Under the pieces are notes generated by a model. The model did not search any database. It worked only from the letters and a program-made list of their open reading frames with translations, and had not been told where the DNA came from. A stretch of DNA of 64,000 nucleotides, from positions 5,689-69,688 of the forward strand of contig CAKOKS010000001.1 of NCBI GenBank assembly GCA_934095845.1, written 5' to 3'. The DNA is from an uncultured Bacilli bacterium. Lineage in GTDB: Bacteria > Bacillota_I > Bacilli_A > RF39 > UBA660. The position numbers and the translations under genes are program-made. Below, one piece after another: positions 48,626 to 60,175 of the stretch. Within the stretch, counting starts at the first letter, position 1, and each line of letters starts with the position of its first letter.

Positions 48626-49765
48626 ATGTTGTATTGTTTTGATAAACTTTTACCATGGGATTATTCTAAAAGAGAAATGGCAATTTCTAAAATGAATAAT
48701 ACTGGAATACTTTATGATAGTAAATTGAAAATATTTACCGACTTTGATGGAAATATAATTGATATTAAAGGTAAATTAATATTTCCAAGAACTGGTGGAG
48801 ACCAAATAAATGATATGAATGATGAAATTATTAAACATGGTGGTATACCTATTTTGTTTAATAATGAAGTTGAGATGGTGGAAAGTTGGCCAGATTATTT
48901 TTCAACAGAGAGAAAATGTAAAATGTTTAAAGGAAAAGATTTAATTAACTTTGATATAGTAAAAGAAATAGAAAAAGTTTATGGAAAAGAAATATTTTTT
49001 AAAACCAAGGTTAAAAACTTCAGTGCTATTATTCCAGTAAATTTACTTTTGGATGAAGAATGTGCATTATATAAAACTTTAATACATCATTTAGAAGATG
49101 AATTTATTATTAGTAAAAAGGTAAATATTGAGGGAGATAGATACGGTTCAAAAGAATATAGATGTTTTGTAGTTAACAATGAAGTTTATAGCATTTCTAG
49201 ATATACGACTACTATTTTACATAGTATAGAACCTAGAGTATTAGAATTTGCAGATAGTATTGTTGAAAAACTTAAAGGTGTATTCCCTGATTATTATGTT
49301 TTAGATTTATTTGAATATCAAGCTGATGGACATAATAATATTGATGTATTAGAATTTAATCCTATTCAAGCTGCTGGGCTTTATTTATATAATTCTTGTA
49401 TGAAAAAAAGTGATGATATATTACATGAAAATTCTAATAATATATCATATGAATTTATTGATAAAATTGATGAATGTACATTTGAAGGAAAAATATCTAG
49501 TGAAGCATCAAATTTATATGATTATCCAAATGGTTTTTCTAATCATTTAAGAAGTATTTGTTTGACAGGAGAAATAGGAACATCGTTTGTTCATGGCTTA
49601 CATTTATCAAACAAAGATTTTGCAAGACATAGTCCAATATTTAATCCTGCAAATGCTGTTTTATTAGATGATGATCTTTTACTACGTAAAGAAGAACCAA
49701 ATAATTTACCAGATGAAATGACTGAAAAACTTAAAAAACTATTAAAAGAAAATAAAATAGATTAA
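48626..49765 (+). CDS. ATP-grasp fold protein, R2K-clade/DUF4343-like (tentative)
   Basis: ..IFFKTKVKNFSAI.., ..KEYRCFVVNNEVYSISRY.., ..YVLDLFEY..DG...IDVLEFNPIQAAGLY.. match the ATP-grasp core pattern. Confidence 0.6.
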   Translation: MLYCFDKLLPWDYSKREMAISKMNNTGILYDSKLKIFTDFDGNIIDIKGKLIFPRTGGDQINDMNDEIIKHGGIPILFNNEVEMVESWPDYFSTERKCKMFKGKDLINFDIVKEIEKVYGKEIFFKTKVKNFSAIIPVNLLLDEECALYKTLIHHLEDEFIISKKVNIEGDRYGSKEYRCFVVNNEVYSISRYTTTILHSIEPRVLEFADSIVEKLKGVFPDYYVLDLFEYQADGHNNIDVLEFNPIQAAGLYLYNSCMKKSDDILHENSNNISYEFIDKIDECTFEGKISSEASNLYDYPNGFSNHLRSICLTGEIGTSFVHGLHLSNKDFARHSPIFNPANAVLLDDDLLLRKEEPNNLPDEMTEKLKKLLKENKID

Positions 49766-49776
49766 TAAAAATATAT

Positions 49777-49806
49777 GGGAAACTTGAAAATAGTTTCCTT
49801 GTTTTA
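49777..49806 (+). terminator. intrinsic terminator
   Basis: GGAAAC-N9-GTTTCC stem followed by TTGTTTT. Confidence 0.65.
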
Positions 49807-49828
49807 TTGTATATAAAATGATAAAATA
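49797..49828 (+). repeat. 32-bp direct repeat, copy 1 (terminator tail plus promoter-like sequence)
   Basis: CCTTGTTTTATTGTATATAAAATGATAAAATA, identical to 53098-53129. Contains TTGTTT-17 nt-TAAAAT with TG at the extended -10 position. Confidence 0.9.
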
Positions 49829-49853
49829 AAAAATAGGGAGGTTTAGATATATT

Positions 49854-50846
49854 ATGTCACAAATAAGTATTAATAAATTAAAAAAATATGAAAATGGTGT
49901 AACAATTAAACTTAAATATGAAGGAACTTCAATACCTGTTTTTGATGAAGAAAAAGCATATAAACTAATAGAAGCATTTTTTAGTAGTGAAAGATTAGTT
50001 AGTGATATGCCAAGAAATATTTCATACATTAGAACTATATTAAAGGATGCCAATGAGAAGCTATTAGCTATAGAATATAATGATGGTAAGAATGTAGAAA
50101 CTATACAATATGATAATAAAAATTTAGTTTTATTTGAGTGCAAAAAATATGATAGAGATTCAAATTGTATGGAGGTAAGTTTCACTTCAAGTAATGGATT
50201 AAATGTTTCTTTTTCAGGTTTAGGCTTTGCTAATAGTGCTAAATATGCACAAATGGATAATATGAAAAGTAAATTTAACAAAGTAATAGAATATCTTGAT
50301 GAGTTAAAATATGTTGGTTTTGTATCCCTTGATAATGATTCTAAATTATTAGTTGAAGTGTATAAAATATTTTATAAGGAAAATCCTGATTTTAGTAAAG
50401 AAGATATAAACATAAAGATGCAAGCCATGGTGTCAATTTTGTCTCAATTTGATATTTATTGTGGAGATTATAGTTTTAGTTTTGATGGAAACATGCCAGA
50501 ATCCATTGCTTTATATGCAAAAATTTATGATTTGTTTCCCCTAGGTGAAGTAACTGTAGTAGACGATCCAATAGAATTAAAAACATCTGCAAAAGAGCGT
50601 ATAGAAATTGTTGGAGAAACTGTAAAAAATGCGTTTAGTAATGAAGAAAACATAAATGAAACATTAATAACAATTAGTAAAACTATTTATGCTGGAAGGT
50701 ATGATGTTTCACATTGTGACGTTAGAGAATTGATAAAAAATTCAAATATAAATCTTACAGTTAGTGAAGCAGAGTCAAGTCTTAAATTAGTAAAAAAAAT
50801 AAATGATAGAATGACTGAAAATATGTTAAATAAAAGCCATAAATAA
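49854..50846 (+). CDS. hypothetical protein; C-terminal half faintly YwgA/Panacea(DUF4065)-like
   Basis: 330-aa ORF with a GGGAGG RBS. ..IKMQAMVSILSQF....GDYSFSFDGNMPESIALYAKIYDL.. resembles the KLQK...Y.F..Y.YGP.S..L motif (from memory, weak). Confidence 0.65.
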   Translation: MSQISINKLKKYENGVTIKLKYEGTSIPVFDEEKAYKLIEAFFSSERLVSDMPRNISYIRTILKDANEKLLAIEYNDGKNVETIQYDNKNLVLFECKKYDRDSNCMEVSFTSSNGLNVSFSGLGFANSAKYAQMDNMKSKFNKVIEYLDELKYVGFVSLDNDSKLLVEVYKIFYKENPDFSKEDINIKMQAMVSILSQFDIYCGDYSFSFDGNMPESIALYAKIYDLFPLGEVTVVDDPIELKTSAKERIEIVGETVKNAFSNEENINETLITISKTIYAGRYDVSHCDVRELIKNSNINLTVSEAESSLKLVKKINDRMTENMLNKSHK

Positions 50847-50864
50847 CATTTTGATTTATTATAT

Positions 50865-50897
50865 AGGAAGTCACAAAATGACTTCCTTATTTTATTT
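50865..50897 (+). terminator. intrinsic terminator
   Basis: AGGAAGTCA-CAAAA-TGACTTCCT 9-bp stem followed by a T-rich tail. Confidence 0.75.
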
Positions 50898-50908
50898 AGT
50901 AAATTTGT
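50890..50908 (+). repeat. 19-bp direct repeat, copy 1
   Basis: TTTTATTTAGTAAATTTGT, identical to 52018-52036. Confidence 0.85.
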
Positions 50909-51011
50909 AATCGAAATTGGTATCCTTTTATATACAATGAAAGATATAGCTAGATTATAACGGTTTTAAATTACTTGTGATATAATATGCTTCACTTTAG
51001 AGGAGGACTTT

Positions 51012-51968
51012 ATGACAATAGACTTTAATGAACAAGAAATATTAAAAATTGAACAGTTTACTGGATTACCTTTAATTGGTTATATTAATCCGCAAGGTAA
51101 AATTATAAATTATAGCATTTTAATCGGAGAATATGGACATGATAACTGGAGAAATCCAGTAACTCCTATTTTTTTAAATTTTGTAAGTTTTGTTATTAAA
51201 AATCAAAGGATGCCACAATTTAAATTCGAAGGATATGAAAAATTATTAGAAATGAATAAATATGAAGGTTTTGATGATATAGTAAAAAGAGGAGTAGACT
51301 ATTATAGTGATCTTAATCGAACATCTTATAAAACTTTTTTAGATAAGTTACAACGTTGTTTTGAAGAAGAAAATGATAATGCCCAATCTTATAGTTTTAG
51401 TCAAAGAGACGGTTTTGAAATATTAAGAACCGATATGGTGCGTTTTTTTCACAAACTCTATTCTAATAATAATTTTTTTGGATCGCTTGGAAGAATTATT
51501 TATGTTGAAAATAGAGATTTTATTGCTAAAAAATATAATATCGAAGATGATAATAAAATAATGGAATTTTATTATCAGTATGTAATAGTTAATTTAATTT
51601 CTTATATGAAGGATTTTTGTGTTCAATATTTAGGATATGATTCTATTGAAAGGGCAACACCGTGTGCTGATTTGAATATAATTAATAATATTTATGATAG
51701 TTCTAATGGCTATAGATTTTCCAACAATCCTAGAACTATTACAACTTCTTGTACTAATATTAATGAACGTTTCTATAATTGGTTGCTTATGGATTGGCAA
51801 ATACAAAGAGTTCCTAGATATTTTTGGAATGAAAAAGAAAAAATATTTAAATTAGAAGAACCCGATTATATATTTCATAAAACTGATAAAGAAGAAATAT
51901 TAGAAAAAGAAATAGAGGCAATTAGAAATCAAATACCAAAAGCTAAAAGAAAAGTTTATTTCAGATAA
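51012..51968 (+). CDS. hypothetical protein
   Basis: 318-aa ORF with a GAGGAGG RBS. No family recognised. Confidence 0.7.
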   Translation: MTIDFNEQEILKIEQFTGLPLIGYINPQGKIINYSILIGEYGHDNWRNPVTPIFLNFVSFVIKNQRMPQFKFEGYEKLLEMNKYEGFDDIVKRGVDYYSDLNRTSYKTFLDKLQRCFEEENDNAQSYSFSQRDGFEILRTDMVRFFHKLYSNNNFFGSLGRIIYVENRDFIAKKYNIEDDNKIMEFYYQYVIVNLISYMKDFCVQYLGYDSIERATPCADLNIINNIYDSSNGYRFSNNPRTITTSCTNINERFYNWLLMDWQIQRVPRYFWNEKEKIFKLEEPDYIFHKTDKEEILEKEIEAIRNQIPKAKRKVYFR

Positions 51969-52017
51969 AAATATTGTCACTAAAATTCAATTGTTAAAAA
52001 TAGTAAATGCTATTCAG

Positions 52018-52036
52018 TTTTATTTAGTAAATTTGT
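52018..52036 (+). repeat. 19-bp direct repeat, copy 2
   Basis: TTTTATTTAGTAAATTTGT. Confidence 0.85.
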
Positions 52037-52137
52037 TACACTAATGATTATTTTATGATTAATTTAGTATTATATTGAAATCAATTGAAGAAAAAAATTT
52101 TAAAGAGTATAATATTATTAATTTTTAGGTGAAAAGT

Positions 52138-53058
52138 ATGACATTAACTATTATTATTGAAGAATATTATAATTTGATTTGTGAAATGAATTATTTATTA
52201 ATTGTATTAAATGGAGTATTAGAAGATGATGAAAATATTCAATTTATAAAAGAAAAAATATTAATAAATGATAATTTTAAACATATAGATATAGATAACA
52301 TTCTAAAATATTTACAAAATTCAGTAGATAATGATTTGAATTTTAAATTAATTAAGTACTTAAAAAATTTAATAATATTTGCTGAAAAATATAATGTTAA
52401 TTCATTTGAAGAAATAGAAGATAGAATTTTAACATTATGGGAACATGGGCATATTTATGATGAAACATTATTGAAATATGTTATTAGAATAGATTCGGAT
52501 AATTTATATAAAATATATATTGATATGGTAAGAGAAAATCTGATTAAAGATCCGAATGTTCATATTGGAACTTCATCTGAGCCGTTGTTTACTATGCTTC
52601 CTAAAAAAAAGAAATTGTTAATTTATAATTTAAAAATTATTGCTAGTCCATTAGTAAATTGGACTATATTAAAAAATGGTACAATTCCATTAGAACATTT
52701 TATTTATGAATATGAAACAGCTAAAGATAAAATATTAAAAAAATATTTTCATGACATAATAATGAGTGCTTTAAAAGGAAATTTGTGTGTATTTAATAAT
52801 AGATATTTTAAAAGAACAGGATGCAGTTATTTTGAAAAAGTTACAGGATTATATTTATTATCACTATATGATGTAGAAGATACACAATGCTTACATAATA
52901 GATTAAGTGATGATGGTTTTATAAAAGAAATAAATGAGTATTTACTAAGTGATGAAGGATATAATCATCAATTAAAATTATATAAAGAACATAATCTTCA
53001 AGGAGATAGGAGTTTAAATCAGATAAAATTAGTAAGAAAGAATAGAAATTTTAATTAA
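52138..53058 (+). CDS. hypothetical protein
   Basis: AGGTGA lies 5 nt upstream of the ATG at 52138 (track GTG at 52129). 306 aa. No family recognised. Confidence 0.65.
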   Translation: MTLTIIIEEYYNLICEMNYLLIVLNGVLEDDENIQFIKEKILINDNFKHIDIDNILKYLQNSVDNDLNFKLIKYLKNLIIFAEKYNVNSFEEIEDRILTLWEHGHIYDETLLKYVIRIDSDNLYKIYIDMVRENLIKDPNVHIGTSSEPLFTMLPKKKKLLIYNLKIIASPLVNWTILKNGTIPLEHFIYEYETAKDKILKKYFHDIIMSALKGNLCVFNNRYFKRTGCSYFEKVTGLYLLSLYDVEDTQCLHNRLSDDGFIKEINEYLLSDEGYNHQLKLYKEHNLQGDRSLNQIKLVRKNRNFN

Positions 53059-57522: not shown

Positions 57523-57684
57523 ATGGAAGAAAAAGATAAATTAGAAAAACTAAATGAAGTAAATGATCTTGTTAAAGTTGAAGTAAGAAATAGGCATGAA
57601 AGTAAAATAATTTTGATACTTGCTCTTGCAGGAATATTAATACTTATAGTGTTTATTCTTGAACTTCTAGTTTTGAATAAATAG
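57523..57684 (+). CDS. possible 53-aa tail-anchored membrane peptide
   Basis: ATG lies 6 nt after the PPase stop. MEEKDKLEKLNEVNDLVKVEVRNRHESKIILILALAGILILIVFILELLVLNK. Weak RBS. Confidence 0.4.
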   Translation: MEEKDKLEKLNEVNDLVKVEVRNRHESKIILILALAGILILIVFILELLVLNK

Positions 57685-57725: not shown

Positions 57726-57754
57726 TTGATTTTTTTACTTAAATTTGCTATAAT
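57726..57754 (+). promoter_or_regulatory. sigma-A-type promoter with extended -10
   Basis: TTGATT-17 nt-TGcTATAAT. Confidence 0.65.
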
Positions 57755-57759
57755 TAATT

Positions 57760-58264
57760 TGTGTGGTGCATTATGCTAGTCATTACACTATTTGAAGGTA
57801 GGGCTAAAAATCTACCAATTGTACAAATGAGACTTTGTATATTTGCTTCTTCTGCCCAAGTTGGGGTGAATATATGATTTAAAATTTAAGGATACCTCAT
57901 AATGGCATATGAAATATTCCTTTTATTGCCTCACTTATACAAATAATGATTAACGTACATGATGTGAGTGATTGCTAGGGATAATTTTTGAAATAGTAAT
58001 TGCAAAAGCATATAAGAATAGTCACTTATGTTAGGGAAAGCCTCTAGCGTGTATATATTATAGGTATTAAGGTGCGGACTAAGTGGTAATCGAGTAGTTA
58101 GCTTGGCAACAACTAACTGCATTATTTAAAACGAAAGTGCTTTAGGGTAACCGCAAGTATAATGTAGAGAAATTCAACTCGACCAAAGCCGTAAAATTGA
58201 TTTATAATATACCATACAATAAATGACTTTAAATTGGGGGAATGCCAAGTTAAAGTTTTTTTTT
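57760..58264 (+). ncRNA. candidate ~500-nt structured non-coding RNA of unrecognised class
   Basis: Has its own promoter and a strong terminator. No RBS-led ORF. The 5' end 57760-57775 pairs with 58203-58218. Hairpins at 57797-57816, 57820-57841, 57888-57922, 57930-57968 and 58094-58120. Locally raised G+C. Confidence 0.6.
58226..58264 (+). terminator. strong intrinsic terminator
   Basis: ACTTTAA+TTGG / CCAA+TTAAAGT stem (11 bp, one mismatch) followed by T9. Confidence 0.85.
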
Positions 58265-58290
58265 GCAAAATTTTAATATTTAGATATAAT
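58263..58290 (+). promoter_or_regulatory. promoter of the downstream membrane-protein operon
   Basis: TTGCAA-16 nt-TATAAT. Confidence 0.5.
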
Positions 58291-58308
58291 TATAATGGAG
58301 TGTGAAAT

Positions 58309-58827
58309 ATGAAAAAAGATTATTGGATTTTAAAAGTCTTTATAATTACTTTTATTTTATCTATATGTTTTAGTTTTATAACTAATGTAATGAGTGCATC
58401 TTTTAATTCAATTATTTTAATAATAATTCTTTTATGTGTAATCGCTATTGGAATAATTTTTGATATTATTGGTACTTCTTGTATGAGTGCTAATGAATCT
58501 TCATTTCATTCAATTGCAAGTAAGAAAATAAGTGGAGCAAAAGAAGCTATTAATATGCTTAAGAATAGAAATAAAATATCTAGTATTTGTAATGATATTG
58601 TTGGAGATGTATGTGGAATTATTTCTGGTGGTTTAGGAGCTGTTATAGCGATTTCCATTGCATCAACAACTGGTTTAAATAATGTTTTAGTATCAGTTAT
58701 AACTTCAGCAATTGTTTCTTCACTTACTGTTGGTGGTAAAGCTATATTCAAAAATATTGCTATTAAAAATGCTGATAAAATTATTTTTACTGTAGGTAAA
58801 ATAAAACATTTTTTTAGGGTGAAATGA
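58309..58827 (+). CDS. integral membrane protein (weak resemblance to CNNM/DUF21 TM domain)
   Basis: 172 aa with four hydrophobic segments. GGAG RBS. ATGA overlap with the next gene. Confidence 0.6.
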   Translation: MKKDYWILKVFIITFILSICFSFITNVMSASFNSIILIIILLCVIAIGIIFDIIGTSCMSANESSFHSIASKKISGAKEAINMLKNRNKISSICNDIVGDVCGIISGGLGAVIAISIASTTGLNNVLVSVITSAIVSSLTVGGKAIFKNIAIKNADKIIFTVGKIKHFFRVK

Positions 58828-59426
58828 TGAAAAAAAATATTTTGTTAATAAGTGTAATTGCTTTATTTTTTTTAGATCTTTATTTTATATTAAGTGGATA
58901 TTCTAAAACTATAGATTCAAATGTAGCAATTTATTTTGCAAATCACAACAATATTGTTTTAACAAATATATTTAAATTTATATCATTTATTTGTAGTCCT
59001 AAATTTATGATTTTAATAAATGTATGTTTATTTATTTCTATCATTTTAAAAAAGAAATATAAATTATTTTTAATAAATGTTGCTAGTATAACAAGCGTAG
59101 TAGTTAATAATATATTAAAAATTATTATAAAAAGAGAAAGACCTAATTTTTTAGCTTTAGTTAATGAAACAAGTTATTCTTTCCCTTCAGGGCATTCAAT
59201 GATTTCTATTTTATTTTTTGGAAGTATAATTTATTTAGTAAATAAGTATAATATAAAATATAAAAAAACAATAACTATCTTATTAAGTATATTTATTATT
59301 TTAGTTGGATTAAGTAGATTATATTTAGGAGTACATTTTTTAACAGATGTAATTGGCGGATATTTATGTGGTGTTGTTACTTTAATAATTATTATTATGA
59401 TTTTTGAAAGGGTTGATAAAAAATGA
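58824..59426 (+). CDS. PAP2 family phosphatase (undecaprenyl-diphosphatase-like)
   Basis: KRERPNF...SFPSGHS...SRLYLGVHFLTDVIGG. Confidence 0.88.
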   Translation: MMKKNILLISVIALFFLDLYFILSGYSKTIDSNVAIYFANHNNIVLTNIFKFISFICSPKFMILINVCLFISIILKKKYKLFLINVASITSVVVNNILKIIIKRERPNFLALVNETSYSFPSGHSMISILFFGSIIYLVNKYNIKYKKTITILLSIFIILVGLSRLYLGVHFLTDVIGGYLCGVVTLIIIIMIFERVDKK

Positions 59427-60175
59427 AAGCACTTATTACAGGAGCATCAAGTGGTATAGGTAAAGATATGGCGAGATATTTAAGTTCACTTGGATATGAC
59501 TTAATATTAGTTGCTAGAAGAAAAACTTATTTAGAAAACTTAAAAAAAGAATTATCTACTAATGTAAAAATAATACCTTATGATTTAGCAGTTCAAGATA
59601 ATTTAGATAATCTTTGGAATGAAGTCAAAGATGAGGATATAAATTTACTTGTTAATAATGCCGGTTTTGGTTTATTTGGAGAATTTGATAAAACAGATTT
59701 AGACCGAGAATTTGAGATGATTGATGTTAATATTAAGGCTCTTCATTATTTAACAAAGAAATTTTTAATTAAATTTAAAAAAGAAGGTAAAGGAAGAATT
59801 TTGAATGTGGCATCTTCAGCTGGTTTTATGGCTGGACCTAAATTAAGTACTTATTATGCTAGTAAAAATTATGCCTTAAGATTAAGTGAAGCTATTTATG
59901 AAGAATTAAAAGTAGCGAAAAGCAATGTACATATTTCTTGTTTATGTCCAGGACCAGTTGATACAGAATTTAATAAAGTCGCTCATGGAGAATTTCATAC
60001 AAAATCTTTAACAAGTGAATATGTTGCTAAATATGCAATAGATCAAACTTTAAAAAATAAATTATATATAATACCAAGTTTTAGAATGAAAGCAGCAATA
60101 TTTTTAACAAGATTAGTTCCTAGAAAATTACTTTTAAAAATAACTTATCTAATTCAAGATAGAAAAACTAGATAA
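59423..60175 (+). CDS. SDR family oxidoreductase
   Basis: TGASSGIG, NNAG, S..YYASKNYAL. Confidence 0.9.
   Translation: MKALITGASSGIGKDMARYLSSLGYDLILVARRKTYLENLKKELSTNVKIIPYDLAVQDNLDNLWNEVKDEDINLLVNNAGFGLFGEFDKTDLDREFEMIDVNIKALHYLTKKFLIKFKKEGKGRILNVASSAGFMAGPKLSTYYASKNYALRLSEAIYEELKVAKSNVHISCLCPGPVDTEFNKVAHGEFHTKSLTSEYVAKYAIDQTLKNKLYIIPSFRMKAAIFLTRLVPRKLLLKITYLIQDRKTR

What the first reader, a model, noticed from the sequence alone, without database searches (positions are those of the whole stretch)
57726..58264. Independent ~500-nt, highly structured non-coding transcription unit of unrecognised class
The evidence, all read directly from the sequence:
- Promoter: near-consensus, TTGATT-17 nt-TGcTATAAT (57726-57754).
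- Terminator: an 11-bp stem (one mismatch) plus T9 at 58226-58264.
- Not a leader: the downstream gene has its own TTGCAA-16-TATAAT promoter after that terminator.
- No coding signal: no RBS-led ORF. The only ORFs are a 63-aa antisense one and a 34-codon one without a credible SD.
- Closing helix: 57760-57775 (UGUGUGGUGCAUUAUG) pairs with 58203-58218 in 15 pairs (3 G-U, 1 mismatch), closing the whole molecule just before the terminator.
- Internal hairpins: 57797-57816, 57820-57841, 57888-57922, 57930-57968, and an 8-bp stem at 58094-58120.
- Composition: my hand count gives about 38% G+C for 58021-58200, well above the surrounding AT-rich DNA.
I could not find signatures of RNase P (GAGGAAAGUCC), tmRNA, SRP RNA (GGAAGCAGC), 6S, T-box or group II domain 5. 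The size and apparent ornateness are in the range of the large orphan RNA classes (ROOL, GOLLD, OLE, raiA), but I cannot assign it to any of them from memory.
Basis: seen in the sequence. Interest (0 to 1): 0.75.

Follow-up and report, generated by a model that had tools for sequence, protein, structure and literature searches.

The report
Compact OLE RNA with oapA partner
The flagged ~460-nt structured RNA is real, but it belongs to the known OLE RNA family (the compact form described in reduced-genome gut bacteria) and sits next to its usual membrane-protein partner gene oapA, so it is an ordinary find and not a new RNA class.

Summary
There is a non-coding, highly structured RNA gene with a strong promoter and a hairpin plus T9 terminator. 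Its class is not unknown. Rfam's OLE model (RF01071) matches window 57747-58231 end to end at 226.8 bits (threshold 50, E 1.2e-62). It was the only Rfam hit in the 64 kb.

The gene directly downstream (58309-58827) is an OapA homologue, with a CNNM-like membrane domain and an invariant DxxxD motif. In 80 related genomes an OLE homologue lies upstream of this gene on the same strand.

An alignment of 40 compact relatives gives strong covariation. 97.4% of cells are paired, against 37-43% for slid controls, and 74 of 119 pairs show compensatory changes.

The RNA lacks the P7 and P8 hairpins, the distal P9 arm (L9.3) and P11. This matches the "variant 2" OLE described by Fernando & Breaker (2024) for reduced-genome gut Bacilli.

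The closing helix is right only in its central 5 bp (P1). Two hairpins are wrong.

The terminator and second promoter occur only in this sub-clade. In 29 of 40 relatives ole and oapA look co-transcribed.

Verdict: already known; low interest.

The parts
57726..57754 (+). ole promoter: -35 TTGATT (57726-57731), 17-nt spacer, extended -10 TGcTATAAT (57746-57754). Predicted start near G57761.
   Evidence: scan. An equivalent TTGACA-17-TGnTATAAT promoter is present in 38/40 homologous loci, 7-15 nt upstream of the conserved UGG (visible in the alignment). The start site is inferred, not measured.
57761..58218 (+). OLE RNA, compact form (~458 nt). The Rfam hit spans 57747-58231.
   Evidence: RF01071 at 226.8 bits, GA 50, E 1.2e-62, model positions 1-616. 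Covariation over 40 sequences: 97.4% paired, 74/119 pairs compensatory, 0/500 shuffles reach this.
57763..57767 (+). P1 5' strand (GUGGU). Pairs with 58211-58215 (ACCAU).
Evidence: helix 1 is 97.9% paired, with a U-A to A-U swap in 8 sequences.
57772..57779 (+). P2 5' strand (UAUGCUAG). Pairs with 58044-58051 (CUAGCGUG). Contains the palindromic CUAG that the literature links to OapA binding.
   Evidence: helix 2: the column 30/364 pair occurs as GC 17, UA 11, AU 5, CG 3. OapA sites in or near P2 and P4a: PMC12265935.
57787..57792 (+). P3 5' strand. Pairs with 58017-58022.
   Evidence: helix 3: 6/6 pairs have compensatory changes.
57797..57816 (+). P4 hairpin with invariant loop CUAAAAAU (L4, the A-A dimer bridge B1 in the cryo-EM structure).
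   Evidence: helix 4, 100% paired. L4 A-A bridge: PMC12286853.
57820..57824 (+). P4a 5' strand. Pairs with 57955-57959 and closes the P5/P6 junction.
   Evidence: helix 5: 5/5 pairs with compensatory changes, 85% paired. The helix name is my inference from helix order.
57835..57877 (+). P5 long hairpin with conserved GCCCA loop (L5).
   Evidence: helix 6: 17 pairs, 11 compensatory.
57883..57927 (+). P6 hairpin with conserved AAUGGCAU loop (L6).
   Evidence: helices 7 and 8.
57928..57954 (+). 27-nt poorly conserved linker. It stands where full-length OLE has J6/7, P7 and P8 (Rfam model positions ~191-277).
   Evidence: model blocks of 44 and 36 positions are replaced by 15 + 10 nt. One search shows those blocks are two hairpins in a full-length OLE (L042). 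RNAalifold predicts no helix here.
57962..58011 (+). P9, truncated. The basal and middle stems are kept. The distal 48 model positions (P9.3 with the GGCC kissing loop) are replaced by 2 nt.
   Evidence: helices 9 and 10. L9.3 kissing loop is bridge B3: PMC12286853.
58034..58042 (+). P10 mini-hairpin (GGGAAAGCC region) followed by the conserved CUCUAG. P11 of the model is absent.
   Evidence: helix 11.
58057..58208 (+). 3' domain (domain 2): outer helix 58057-58064/58201-58208, the invariant GUGCGGACUAAGUGGUAAUCGAG block, P13 hairpin 58097-58117 (GGCAAC loop, the OapB-site region of full-length OLE), P14-like arm 58118-58166, and the conserved GAGAAAU...CUCGACC.AAGCCGUAAAAUU.
   Evidence: helices 12-20. 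OapB binds P12.2/P13: PMC12265935.
58226..58264 (+). Intrinsic-terminator-like hairpin (ACUUUAAAUUGG / CCAAGUUAAAGU, one mismatch) plus T9.
   Evidence: -10.4 kcal/mol. Conserved in L001, L002, L004, L014 and L025 and in L003. Absent in 29/40 relatives.
58263..58290 (+). Promoter-like site for oapA: TTGCAA-16-TATAAT. The -10 ends only 6 nt before the GGAG Shine-Dalgarno (58297-58300).
   Evidence: Conserved in the sub-clade. Its function is inferred. A transcript from it would have a leader of only ~10 nt.
58309..58827 (+). oapA: 172-aa membrane protein, the OLE-associated protein A homologue.
   Evidence: Pfam CNNM 27.4 bits (GA 28.4). Invariant D96-x3-D100, the OapA hallmark per PMC11332333. 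Homologues sit directly downstream of OLE, including full-length OLE, in 80 loci.
58824..60175 (+). PAP2-family phosphatase (58824-59426) and SDR oxidoreductase (59423-60175). Their starts overlap the preceding stop codons, so they probably form one operon with oapA.
   Evidence: The SDR follows oapA in 11/39 compact loci and PAP2 in 4/39.

Best explanation
This is the ole gene of an uncultured, very AT-rich gut Bacillota bacterium. It encodes a compact (~458 nt) OLE RNA and is followed by oapA, the gene for its membrane-protein partner.

Proposed mechanism:
1. The RNA is made from its own strong sigma-70-type promoter.
2. It folds into the conserved OLE architecture (P1-P6, a shortened P9, P10 and the 3' domain).
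3. It is bound by OapA, a CNNM-like protein with four hydrophobic segments, through the conserved palindromic sites near P2 and P4a.
4. It is thereby held at the cell membrane as a ribonucleoprotein.
5. In the studied species this particle helps cells cope with alcohol, cold, excess Mg2+ and poor carbon sources, probably by modulating OapA-dependent divalent-cation handling.

Shown here: family membership, structure conservation, promoter conservation, and ole-oapA linkage.

Inferred from work on Halalkalibacterium halodurans and Clostridium acetobutylicum: OapA binding, membrane localisation, dimerisation and stress function.

The RNA lacks J6/7-P7-P8, P9.3 and P11. It therefore corresponds to the published reduced 'variant 2' form, which probably works with fewer protein partners.

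In this sub-clade a hairpin plus T9 terminator and a second promoter lie between ole and oapA. This may uncouple abundant RNA from modest protein expression. In most relatives the two genes are simply co-transcribed.
For: - Rfam OLE full-length hit at 226.8 bits against GA 50. It is the only Rfam hit in the 64 kb.
- The same model scores 213-252 bits on sister compact loci and 375-404 bits on full-length OLEs upstream of OapA homologues.
- nhmmer finds an OLE homologue upstream of the OapA gene, on the same strand, in essentially all 80 loci.
- Covariation: 97.4% paired against 37-43% for slid controls; 74/119 pairs and 626 cells with compensatory changes; 0/500 shuffles reach this.
- 198 invariant columns, including all the OLE signature blocks.
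- OapA: CNNM-like domain, invariant DxxxD, 5469 homologues.
- Promoter conserved in 38/40 loci.
- No conserved ORF.
- The variant description matches PMC11332333.
- Function and partners: PMC12265935. Dimer structure: PMC12286853.
Against: - Nothing contradicts OLE membership.
- Expression, OapA binding, membrane localisation and phenotype are not tested for this organism or for any compact variant.
- The RNA lacks elements that take part in two of the three dimer bridges seen by cryo-EM (L7 of B2; L9.3 of B3). It also lacks the J6/7 strand of the OapC kink-turn. The mechanism worked out for full-length OLE may therefore not transfer completely.
- The Pfam CNNM score of OapA is just below the gathering threshold (27.4 vs 28.4).
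- A profile search of the PDB found no CorB match.
- The biochemical function of OLE itself is still unknown in the literature.
Confidence: 0.93

Rival explanations
1. The element is a cis-acting 5' leader of oapA (a giant regulatory UTR), not a stand-alone RNA.
For: In 29/40 relatives ole is separated from oapA by only 23-57 nt with no T-run, so both lie on one transcript. In H. halodurans ole is part of a polycistronic transcript (PMC12265935).
Against: - This sub-clade has a conserved terminator and a second promoter between the two genes.
- In L003, L063 and L075 ole and oapA are 2-3 kb apart, with another gene in between in L003.
- Per the literature, OLE accumulates as an abundant RNA that binds OapA protein and works as an RNP.
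Confidence: 0.04
2. The compact RNA is a decaying, non-functional remnant of OLE in a genome undergoing reduction.
For: It has lost P7, P8, P9.3 and P11. Published work reports that hosts of such variants mostly lack OapB and OapC.
Against: - About 39 species-level genomes keep the same compact architecture.
- They show 198 invariant columns, abundant compensatory changes, a near-consensus promoter in 38/40, and an intact adjacent oapA.
- This is the signature of purifying selection, not decay.
Confidence: 0.02
3. The region encodes small proteins: the 38-aa sense ORF 57761-57877, or the 63-aa antisense ORF 57931-58122.
For: The ORFs exist mechanically.
Against: No Shine-Dalgarno sequence. The longest ORFs differ in frame, strand and position among homologues. 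Only 7/40 keep the sense frame open. Substitutions follow base-pairing, not codon structure.
Confidence: 0.01

Closest known systems
OLE RNA, full-length form (Rfam RF01071; Halalkalibacterium halodurans, Clostridium acetobutylicum)
   Same: - All signature sequence blocks are present.
- Helices P1-P6, basal P9, P10 and the whole 3' domain including P13 are present.
- The invariant L4 CUAAAAAU, L5 GCCCA and L6 AAUGGCAU loops are present.
- oapA lies immediately downstream.

   Different: - ~458 nt instead of ~580-620 nt.
- No J6/7 consensus, no P7, no P8, no P9.3 (GGCC kissing loop), no P11.
- Own dedicated promoter, and in this sub-clade a terminator before oapA, instead of being embedded in a long polycistronic cluster of housekeeping genes.
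- The gene neighbourhood (uvrB, CBS-DHH pyrophosphatase, PAP2, SDR) is not the classic isoprenoid/xseAB/nusB cluster. The classic cluster is recalled from my own knowledge of the literature.
OLE 'variant 2' (Fernando & Breaker 2024, mSphere, PMC11332333), common in RF39 gut Bacilli
   Same: Complete lack of P7 and P8 while the conserved nucleotides are retained. Host is an uncultured gut bacterium with AT-rich DNA. The closest relatives are MAGs labelled Bacilli, Firmicutes CAG:582, Mycoplasma sp. CAG:472 and Tenericutes.
   Different: I could not apply their own model and score cut-offs (235-310 bits with their Stockholm file), and I could not verify the GTDB order of this genome. I could not see their figure, so I do not know whether their variant-2 consensus also shows the extra loss of P9.3 and P11 seen here.
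MpfA/CorB CNNM-domain Mg2+ transporters (protein analogue of the OLE-OapA particle)
   Same: OapA has a CNNM-like transmembrane domain (Pfam PF01595, 27.4 bits). The literature proposes that OLE RNA substitutes for the CBS/CorC domains that OapA lacks.
   Different: OapA is only 172 aa, has four hydrophobic segments and a DxxxD motif, and has no CBS or CorC domains. There was no PDB sequence match.

Membership tests
OLE RNA (RF01071) | Covariance-model score at or above the curated gathering threshold, full-length match | tested here: met
   226.8 bits against GA 50, E 1.2e-62, model 1-616, not truncated.
OLE RNA (RF01071) | Highly conserved sequence blocks (GUGGUGCA, CUAGUCA, CUAAAAAUC, GCCCA, AAUGGCAU, UGCAAAAG, GGAAA..CUCUAG, GUGCGGACUAAGUGGUAAUC, GAGAAAU, CUCGACC.AAGCCGUAAAAUU, ACCA) | tested here: met
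   All are aligned to the model consensus and are invariant or nearly so in 40 relatives.
OLE RNA (RF01071) | Multi-helix secondary structure supported by covariation | tested here: met
   20 helices, 97.4% paired, 74/119 pairs compensatory, slid controls 37-43%.
OLE RNA (RF01071) | oapA gene immediately downstream on the same strand | tested here: met
   oapA lies at 58309-58827, 94 nt after the ACCA of P1's 3' strand. The same arrangement holds in nearly all 80 loci.
OLE RNA (RF01071) | ~600 nt with P7, P8, extended P9 (P9.3) and P11 | tested here: not met
   ~458 nt. Model positions 198-277, 48 positions of distal P9, and P11 are absent. This excludes the full-length type, not the family.
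OLE RNA (RF01071) | Host is an anaerobic or extremophilic member of Bacillota | tested here: inconclusive
   The window is unlabelled. The identical OapA occurs in human gut metagenomes. The closest genomes are labelled Firmicutes, Bacilli, Erysipelotrichaceae, Mycoplasma or Tenericutes MAGs. This is consistent with the feature, but the taxonomy was not verified.
OLE RNA (RF01071) | Membrane-localised RNP with OapA; stress phenotypes on deletion | not testable with these tools
   Known only from H. halodurans experiments.
OLE variant 2 (Fernando & Breaker 2024) | Entire lack of P7 and P8 while conserved OLE nucleotides are retained | tested here: met
   The two hairpins after P6 in the model (198-241 and 249-277) are replaced by a 27-nt unstructured linker. 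Naming these P7 and P8 is inferred from helix order and the L4-L7 naming.
OLE variant 2 (Fernando & Breaker 2024) | Bit score of 235-310 with the authors' own model; host in the RF39 clade; OapB and OapC mostly absent | not tested
   Their model is not available here. Rfam scores are on a different scale. Only 64 kb of the genome is visible, so absence of OapB or OapC cannot be judged. The GTDB order could not be looked up.
OapA protein | DxxxD motif | tested here: met
   D96-I-V-G-D100 is invariant in 26 aligned homologues. The motif is defined in PMC11332333.
OapA protein | CNNM-like transmembrane domain, scoring below true CNNM/MpfA proteins | tested here: inconclusive
   PF01595 at 27.4 bits, GA 28.4. 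The paper says OapA clusters as the next-closest group below MpfA. No PDB hit.
ROOL, GOLLD, raiA, RNase P, tmRNA, SRP, 6S, T-box, group II intron | Rfam gathering-threshold match | tested here: not met
   OLE was the only family at gathering score in the whole window.

The most novel reading that the evidence does not exclude
This compact OLE could approximate the minimal functional core of the family. It keeps L4, L5, L6, P2/P4a and the full 3' domain. It has shed L7, L9.3, the J6/7 kink-turn strand and P11.

If so, it would work with OapA alone, without OapC. It would either dimerise through bridge B1 only (the L4 A-A helix) or act as a monomer.

That would show which parts of the cryo-EM dimer architecture are dispensable, and would offer a smaller, simpler construct for solving the still unresolved 3' domain and the OapA complex.

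The published variant-2 description already points this way, so only the dimer-bridge implication and the sub-clade-specific terminator/promoter insertion would be new.
Probability: 0.3. Interest if true: 0.4.

Novelty: already known. Interest (0 to 1): 0.15.

Why it matters
It matters mainly as a correct annotation. Gene callers leave a ~620-nt unannotated gap here, as seen in public contigs carrying the identical locus. That gap is a known, functionally important but biochemically unsolved RNA.

OLE is among the largest bacterial ncRNAs without a known biochemical activity. Compact natural variants are therefore useful as deletion experiments done by evolution. This one shows that P7, P8, P9.3 and P11 can be lost while the 3' domain, L4-L6 and the OapA-associated palindromes stay invariant.

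It opens no new question beyond those already raised in the 2024-2025 OLE literature.

Tried and rejected
- Sequence and profile searches of OapA against the PDB, hoping for CorB or an OapA structure: no meaningful hits.
- NCBIfam scan of OapA: no family.
- Attempt to confirm that the closest genomes (CAG:582 and others) are GTDB order RF39, through literature search and the paper's supplement: nothing found. The RF39 assignment rests on my recollection only.
It called instead a spurious site inside the RNA at 58027-58051, which is really P10 plus the P2 3' strand.
- Leader, pseudogene and small-protein readings were considered and rejected (see rivals).
- Conservation of the wider gene neighbourhood was checked. 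Only the nearest relatives share it, apart from an SDR gene after oapA in 11/39 loci, so no functional inference was drawn from uvrB or the pyrophosphatase.
- One paper reading failed on too-short search terms.

Full report
**What is there**

A scan of all 64 kb against Rfam 15 at gathering thresholds gave one hit. It was OLE RNA (RF01071) at window 57747-58231 on the + strand, at 226.8 bits against a threshold of 50, E 1.2e-62. It matched model positions 1-616 without truncation.

- Promoter: TTGATT-17-TGcTATAAT at 57726-57754 is present. In 24% G+C DNA such hits occur at chance frequency (22 found, 20.6 expected). The real support is comparative: 38 of 40 homologous loci carry TTGACA-17-(TGn)TATAAT ending 7-15 nt before the conserved UGGUGCA (visible).
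- Terminator: a 12-bp stem with one mismatch at 58226-58256 plus T9 up to 58264. It folds at -10.4 kcal/mol, with an unimpressive z of -1.6. It is conserved, with stem-preserving changes, in six sister genomes. In the five where oapA stays adjacent it is followed by TTGCAA/ATGCAA-N16-17-TATAAT (L003).
- Composition: 37.8% G+C for 58021-58200, against 24.2% for the window.
- ORFs of 38, 63 and 48 aa exist, but none is conserved in frame or position among homologues.
- The 458-nt RNA folds better than all 100 shuffles (z -2.7).

**The partner gene**

The ORF 94 nt downstream (58309-58827, 172 aa) hits the Pfam CNNM transmembrane domain at 27.4 bits, just under the 28.4 cut-off. It has 5469 homologues. 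It carries an invariant D96-x3-D100. Fernando & Breaker give DxxxD as the distinctive mark of OapA relative to true CNNM proteins (PMC11332333).

A scan of species-representative genomes with an OapA alignment returned 80 loci. nhmmer with the window RNA found an OLE homologue upstream on the same strand in essentially all of them. Rfam confirms this:
- 375-404 bits for full-length OLEs (about 610-670 nt; L042, L062, L063, L075);
- 298 bits for an intermediate (L023);
- 213-252 bits for compact sister RNAs.

The ole-oapA pair is the defining genomic signature of the family (PMC12265935).

**Structure and covariation**

I aligned the window RNA with 39 compact homologues (A2; 198 invariant columns). 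RNAalifold, run without reference to Rfam, recovered the OLE architecture, including long-range helices that Rfam's consensus line omits:

| Helix | Window coordinates | Note |
|---|---|---|
| P1 | 57763-57767 / 58211-58215 | |
| P2 | 57772-57779 / 58044-58051 | |
| P3 | 57787-57792 / 58017-58022 | |
| P4 | 57797-57816 | |
| P4a | 57820-57824 / 57955-57959 | |
| P5 | 57835-57877 | |
| P6 | 57883-57927 | |
| P9 | 57962-58011 | |
| P10 | 58034-58042 | |
| 3' domain | 58057-58208 | includes P13 at 58097-58117 |

On this structure 97.4% of cells are standard pairs, against 37-43% when partners are slid by 1-3 columns. 74 of 119 pairs and 626 cells show changes on both sides, and no shuffle out of 500 reaches these values.

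- P4, P6 and P13 coincide with real helices.
- The 16-bp closing helix is correct only in its central 5 bp (P1, with a U-A to A-U swap in 8 sequences). Its inner 9 pairs never covary and use bases that belong to P2 and to the outer helix of the 3' domain.
- 57820-57841 and 57930-57968 are not supported.

Helix names are my assignment from helix order and from the L4-L7/J6/7 naming in the cryo-EM paper. They are inference.

**Which kind of OLE**

Relative to a full-length OLE aligned to the same model (L042), the window RNA differs as follows:
- It lacks the two hairpins after P6 (model 198-241 and 249-277) and the conserved J6/7 CCGUGGAG. A 27-nt unstructured linker replaces them.
- It lacks the distal 48 positions of P9, including the GGCC loop. 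Two nucleotides replace them.
- It lacks the small P11 hairpin.

- variant 1: short P7/P8/P9, typical of TANB77;
- variant 2: P7 and P8 entirely missing, typical of RF39.

They noted that these uncultured gut symbionts with reduced genomes mostly lack OapB and OapC. The window RNA fits variant 2.

The identical OapA is found on human gut metagenome contigs with the same gene order. The nearest genomes are MAGs labelled Firmicutes CAG:582, Bacilli, Mycoplasma sp. CAG:472 or Tenericutes. That these are RF39 is my recollection; I could not verify it.

**How it probably works**

From experiments in H. halodurans and structures from C. acetobutylicum:
- OLE binds OapA through palindromic sites near P2 and P4a.
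- It is carried to the membrane and dimerises.
- It forms a particle needed under alcohol, cold, high-Mg2+ and poor-carbon stress.
- OapA is thought to be a divalent-cation transporter related to MpfA.

I take this to be the mechanism here, by homology. The CUAG palindromes of P2, L4 (CUAAAAAU), L5 (GCCCA), L6 (AAUGGCAU) and the entire 3' domain including the P13 hairpin are invariant or nearly so.

What differs:
- L7, part of dimer bridge B2, is missing.
- L9.3, the kissing loop of bridge B3, is missing.
- The J6/7 strand of the OapC kink-turn is missing.

Dimerisation, if it happens, must therefore rest mainly on the L4 A-A bridge, and OapC binding is unlikely. Some compact relatives (L033, L035, L047) keep a distal P9 arm whose loop contains GAUC. 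GAUC is one of the palindromes reported to replace GGCC. Loss of P9.3 is thus recent and patchy within the clade.

**Transcription unit**

The dedicated promoter is a clade-wide feature (38/40). The terminator and second promoter are not. 29 of 40 relatives have only 23-57 nt without any T5 run between ole and oapA, so there oapA must be read from the ole promoter.

In the window's sub-clade the intergenic insert adds a hairpin plus T7-9 and a TTGCAA-N16-TATAAT. The -10 ends 6 nt before the GGAG, so a transcript from it would have a leader of only ~10 nt. Read-through from ole may still contribute.

oapA, a PAP2 phosphatase and an SDR oxidoreductase have overlapping stop and start codons. The SDR follows oapA in 11 of 39 compact loci. 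This may correspond to the reported ole-dltE association. The match to dltE is my inference.

**Verdict**

A genuine, well-supported OLE RNA of the published compact type, with its oapA partner. Already known; low interest. It is useful as an annotation and as a natural minimal variant.

Noticed in passing
window 48626-53058: An R2K-clade ATP-grasp protein (48626-49765) is followed by three consecutive ORFs of 330, 318 and 309 aa with no Pfam or PADLOC match. They lie just upstream of uvrB. This may be an orphan gene island.
   Followed up: partly
window 57523-57684: A 53-aa ORF with a C-terminal hydrophobic segment lies between the CBS-DHH pyrophosphatase and the ole promoter. It is called as a gene on public contigs with the identical locus. 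It has no family and no homologue in the other 80 loci.
   Followed up: partly
window 58285-58300: The -10 box of the putative oapA promoter ends only 6 nt before the GGAG Shine-Dalgarno, and a second TATAAT lies at 58291-58296. A transcript from here would have almost no leader, so read-through from ole may matter.
   Followed up: no
window 58824-60175: oapA, PAP2 phosphatase and SDR genes overlap by 4 nt at each junction, which suggests translational coupling. An SDR gene directly follows oapA in 11/39 compact-OLE loci. It may be the 'dltE' association reported for OLE.
   Followed up: partly
L003 3021-5001: In this close relative a 409-aa gene for a signal-peptide-bearing protein is inserted between ole and oapA. 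ole keeps its own terminator-like hairpin.
   Followed up: partly
L063 1918-2585; L075 1198-1808: Full-length OLE RNAs (394 and 376 bits) lie 2.4-3.2 kb upstream of the OapA gene instead of directly adjacent.
   Followed up: no
A2 columns 257-300 (L033, L035, L047, also L015): Some compact OLEs retain a distal P9 arm whose loop region contains the palindrome GATC. The window and most relatives have lost this arm entirely. This bears on the L9.3 kissing-loop dimer bridge.
   Followed up: partly
L007 4089-4159; L009 and L016 3939-4010: tRNA genes on the opposite strand lie a few hundred nt upstream of ole in several relatives. The window itself has no tRNA gene at all in 64 kb.
   Followed up: no
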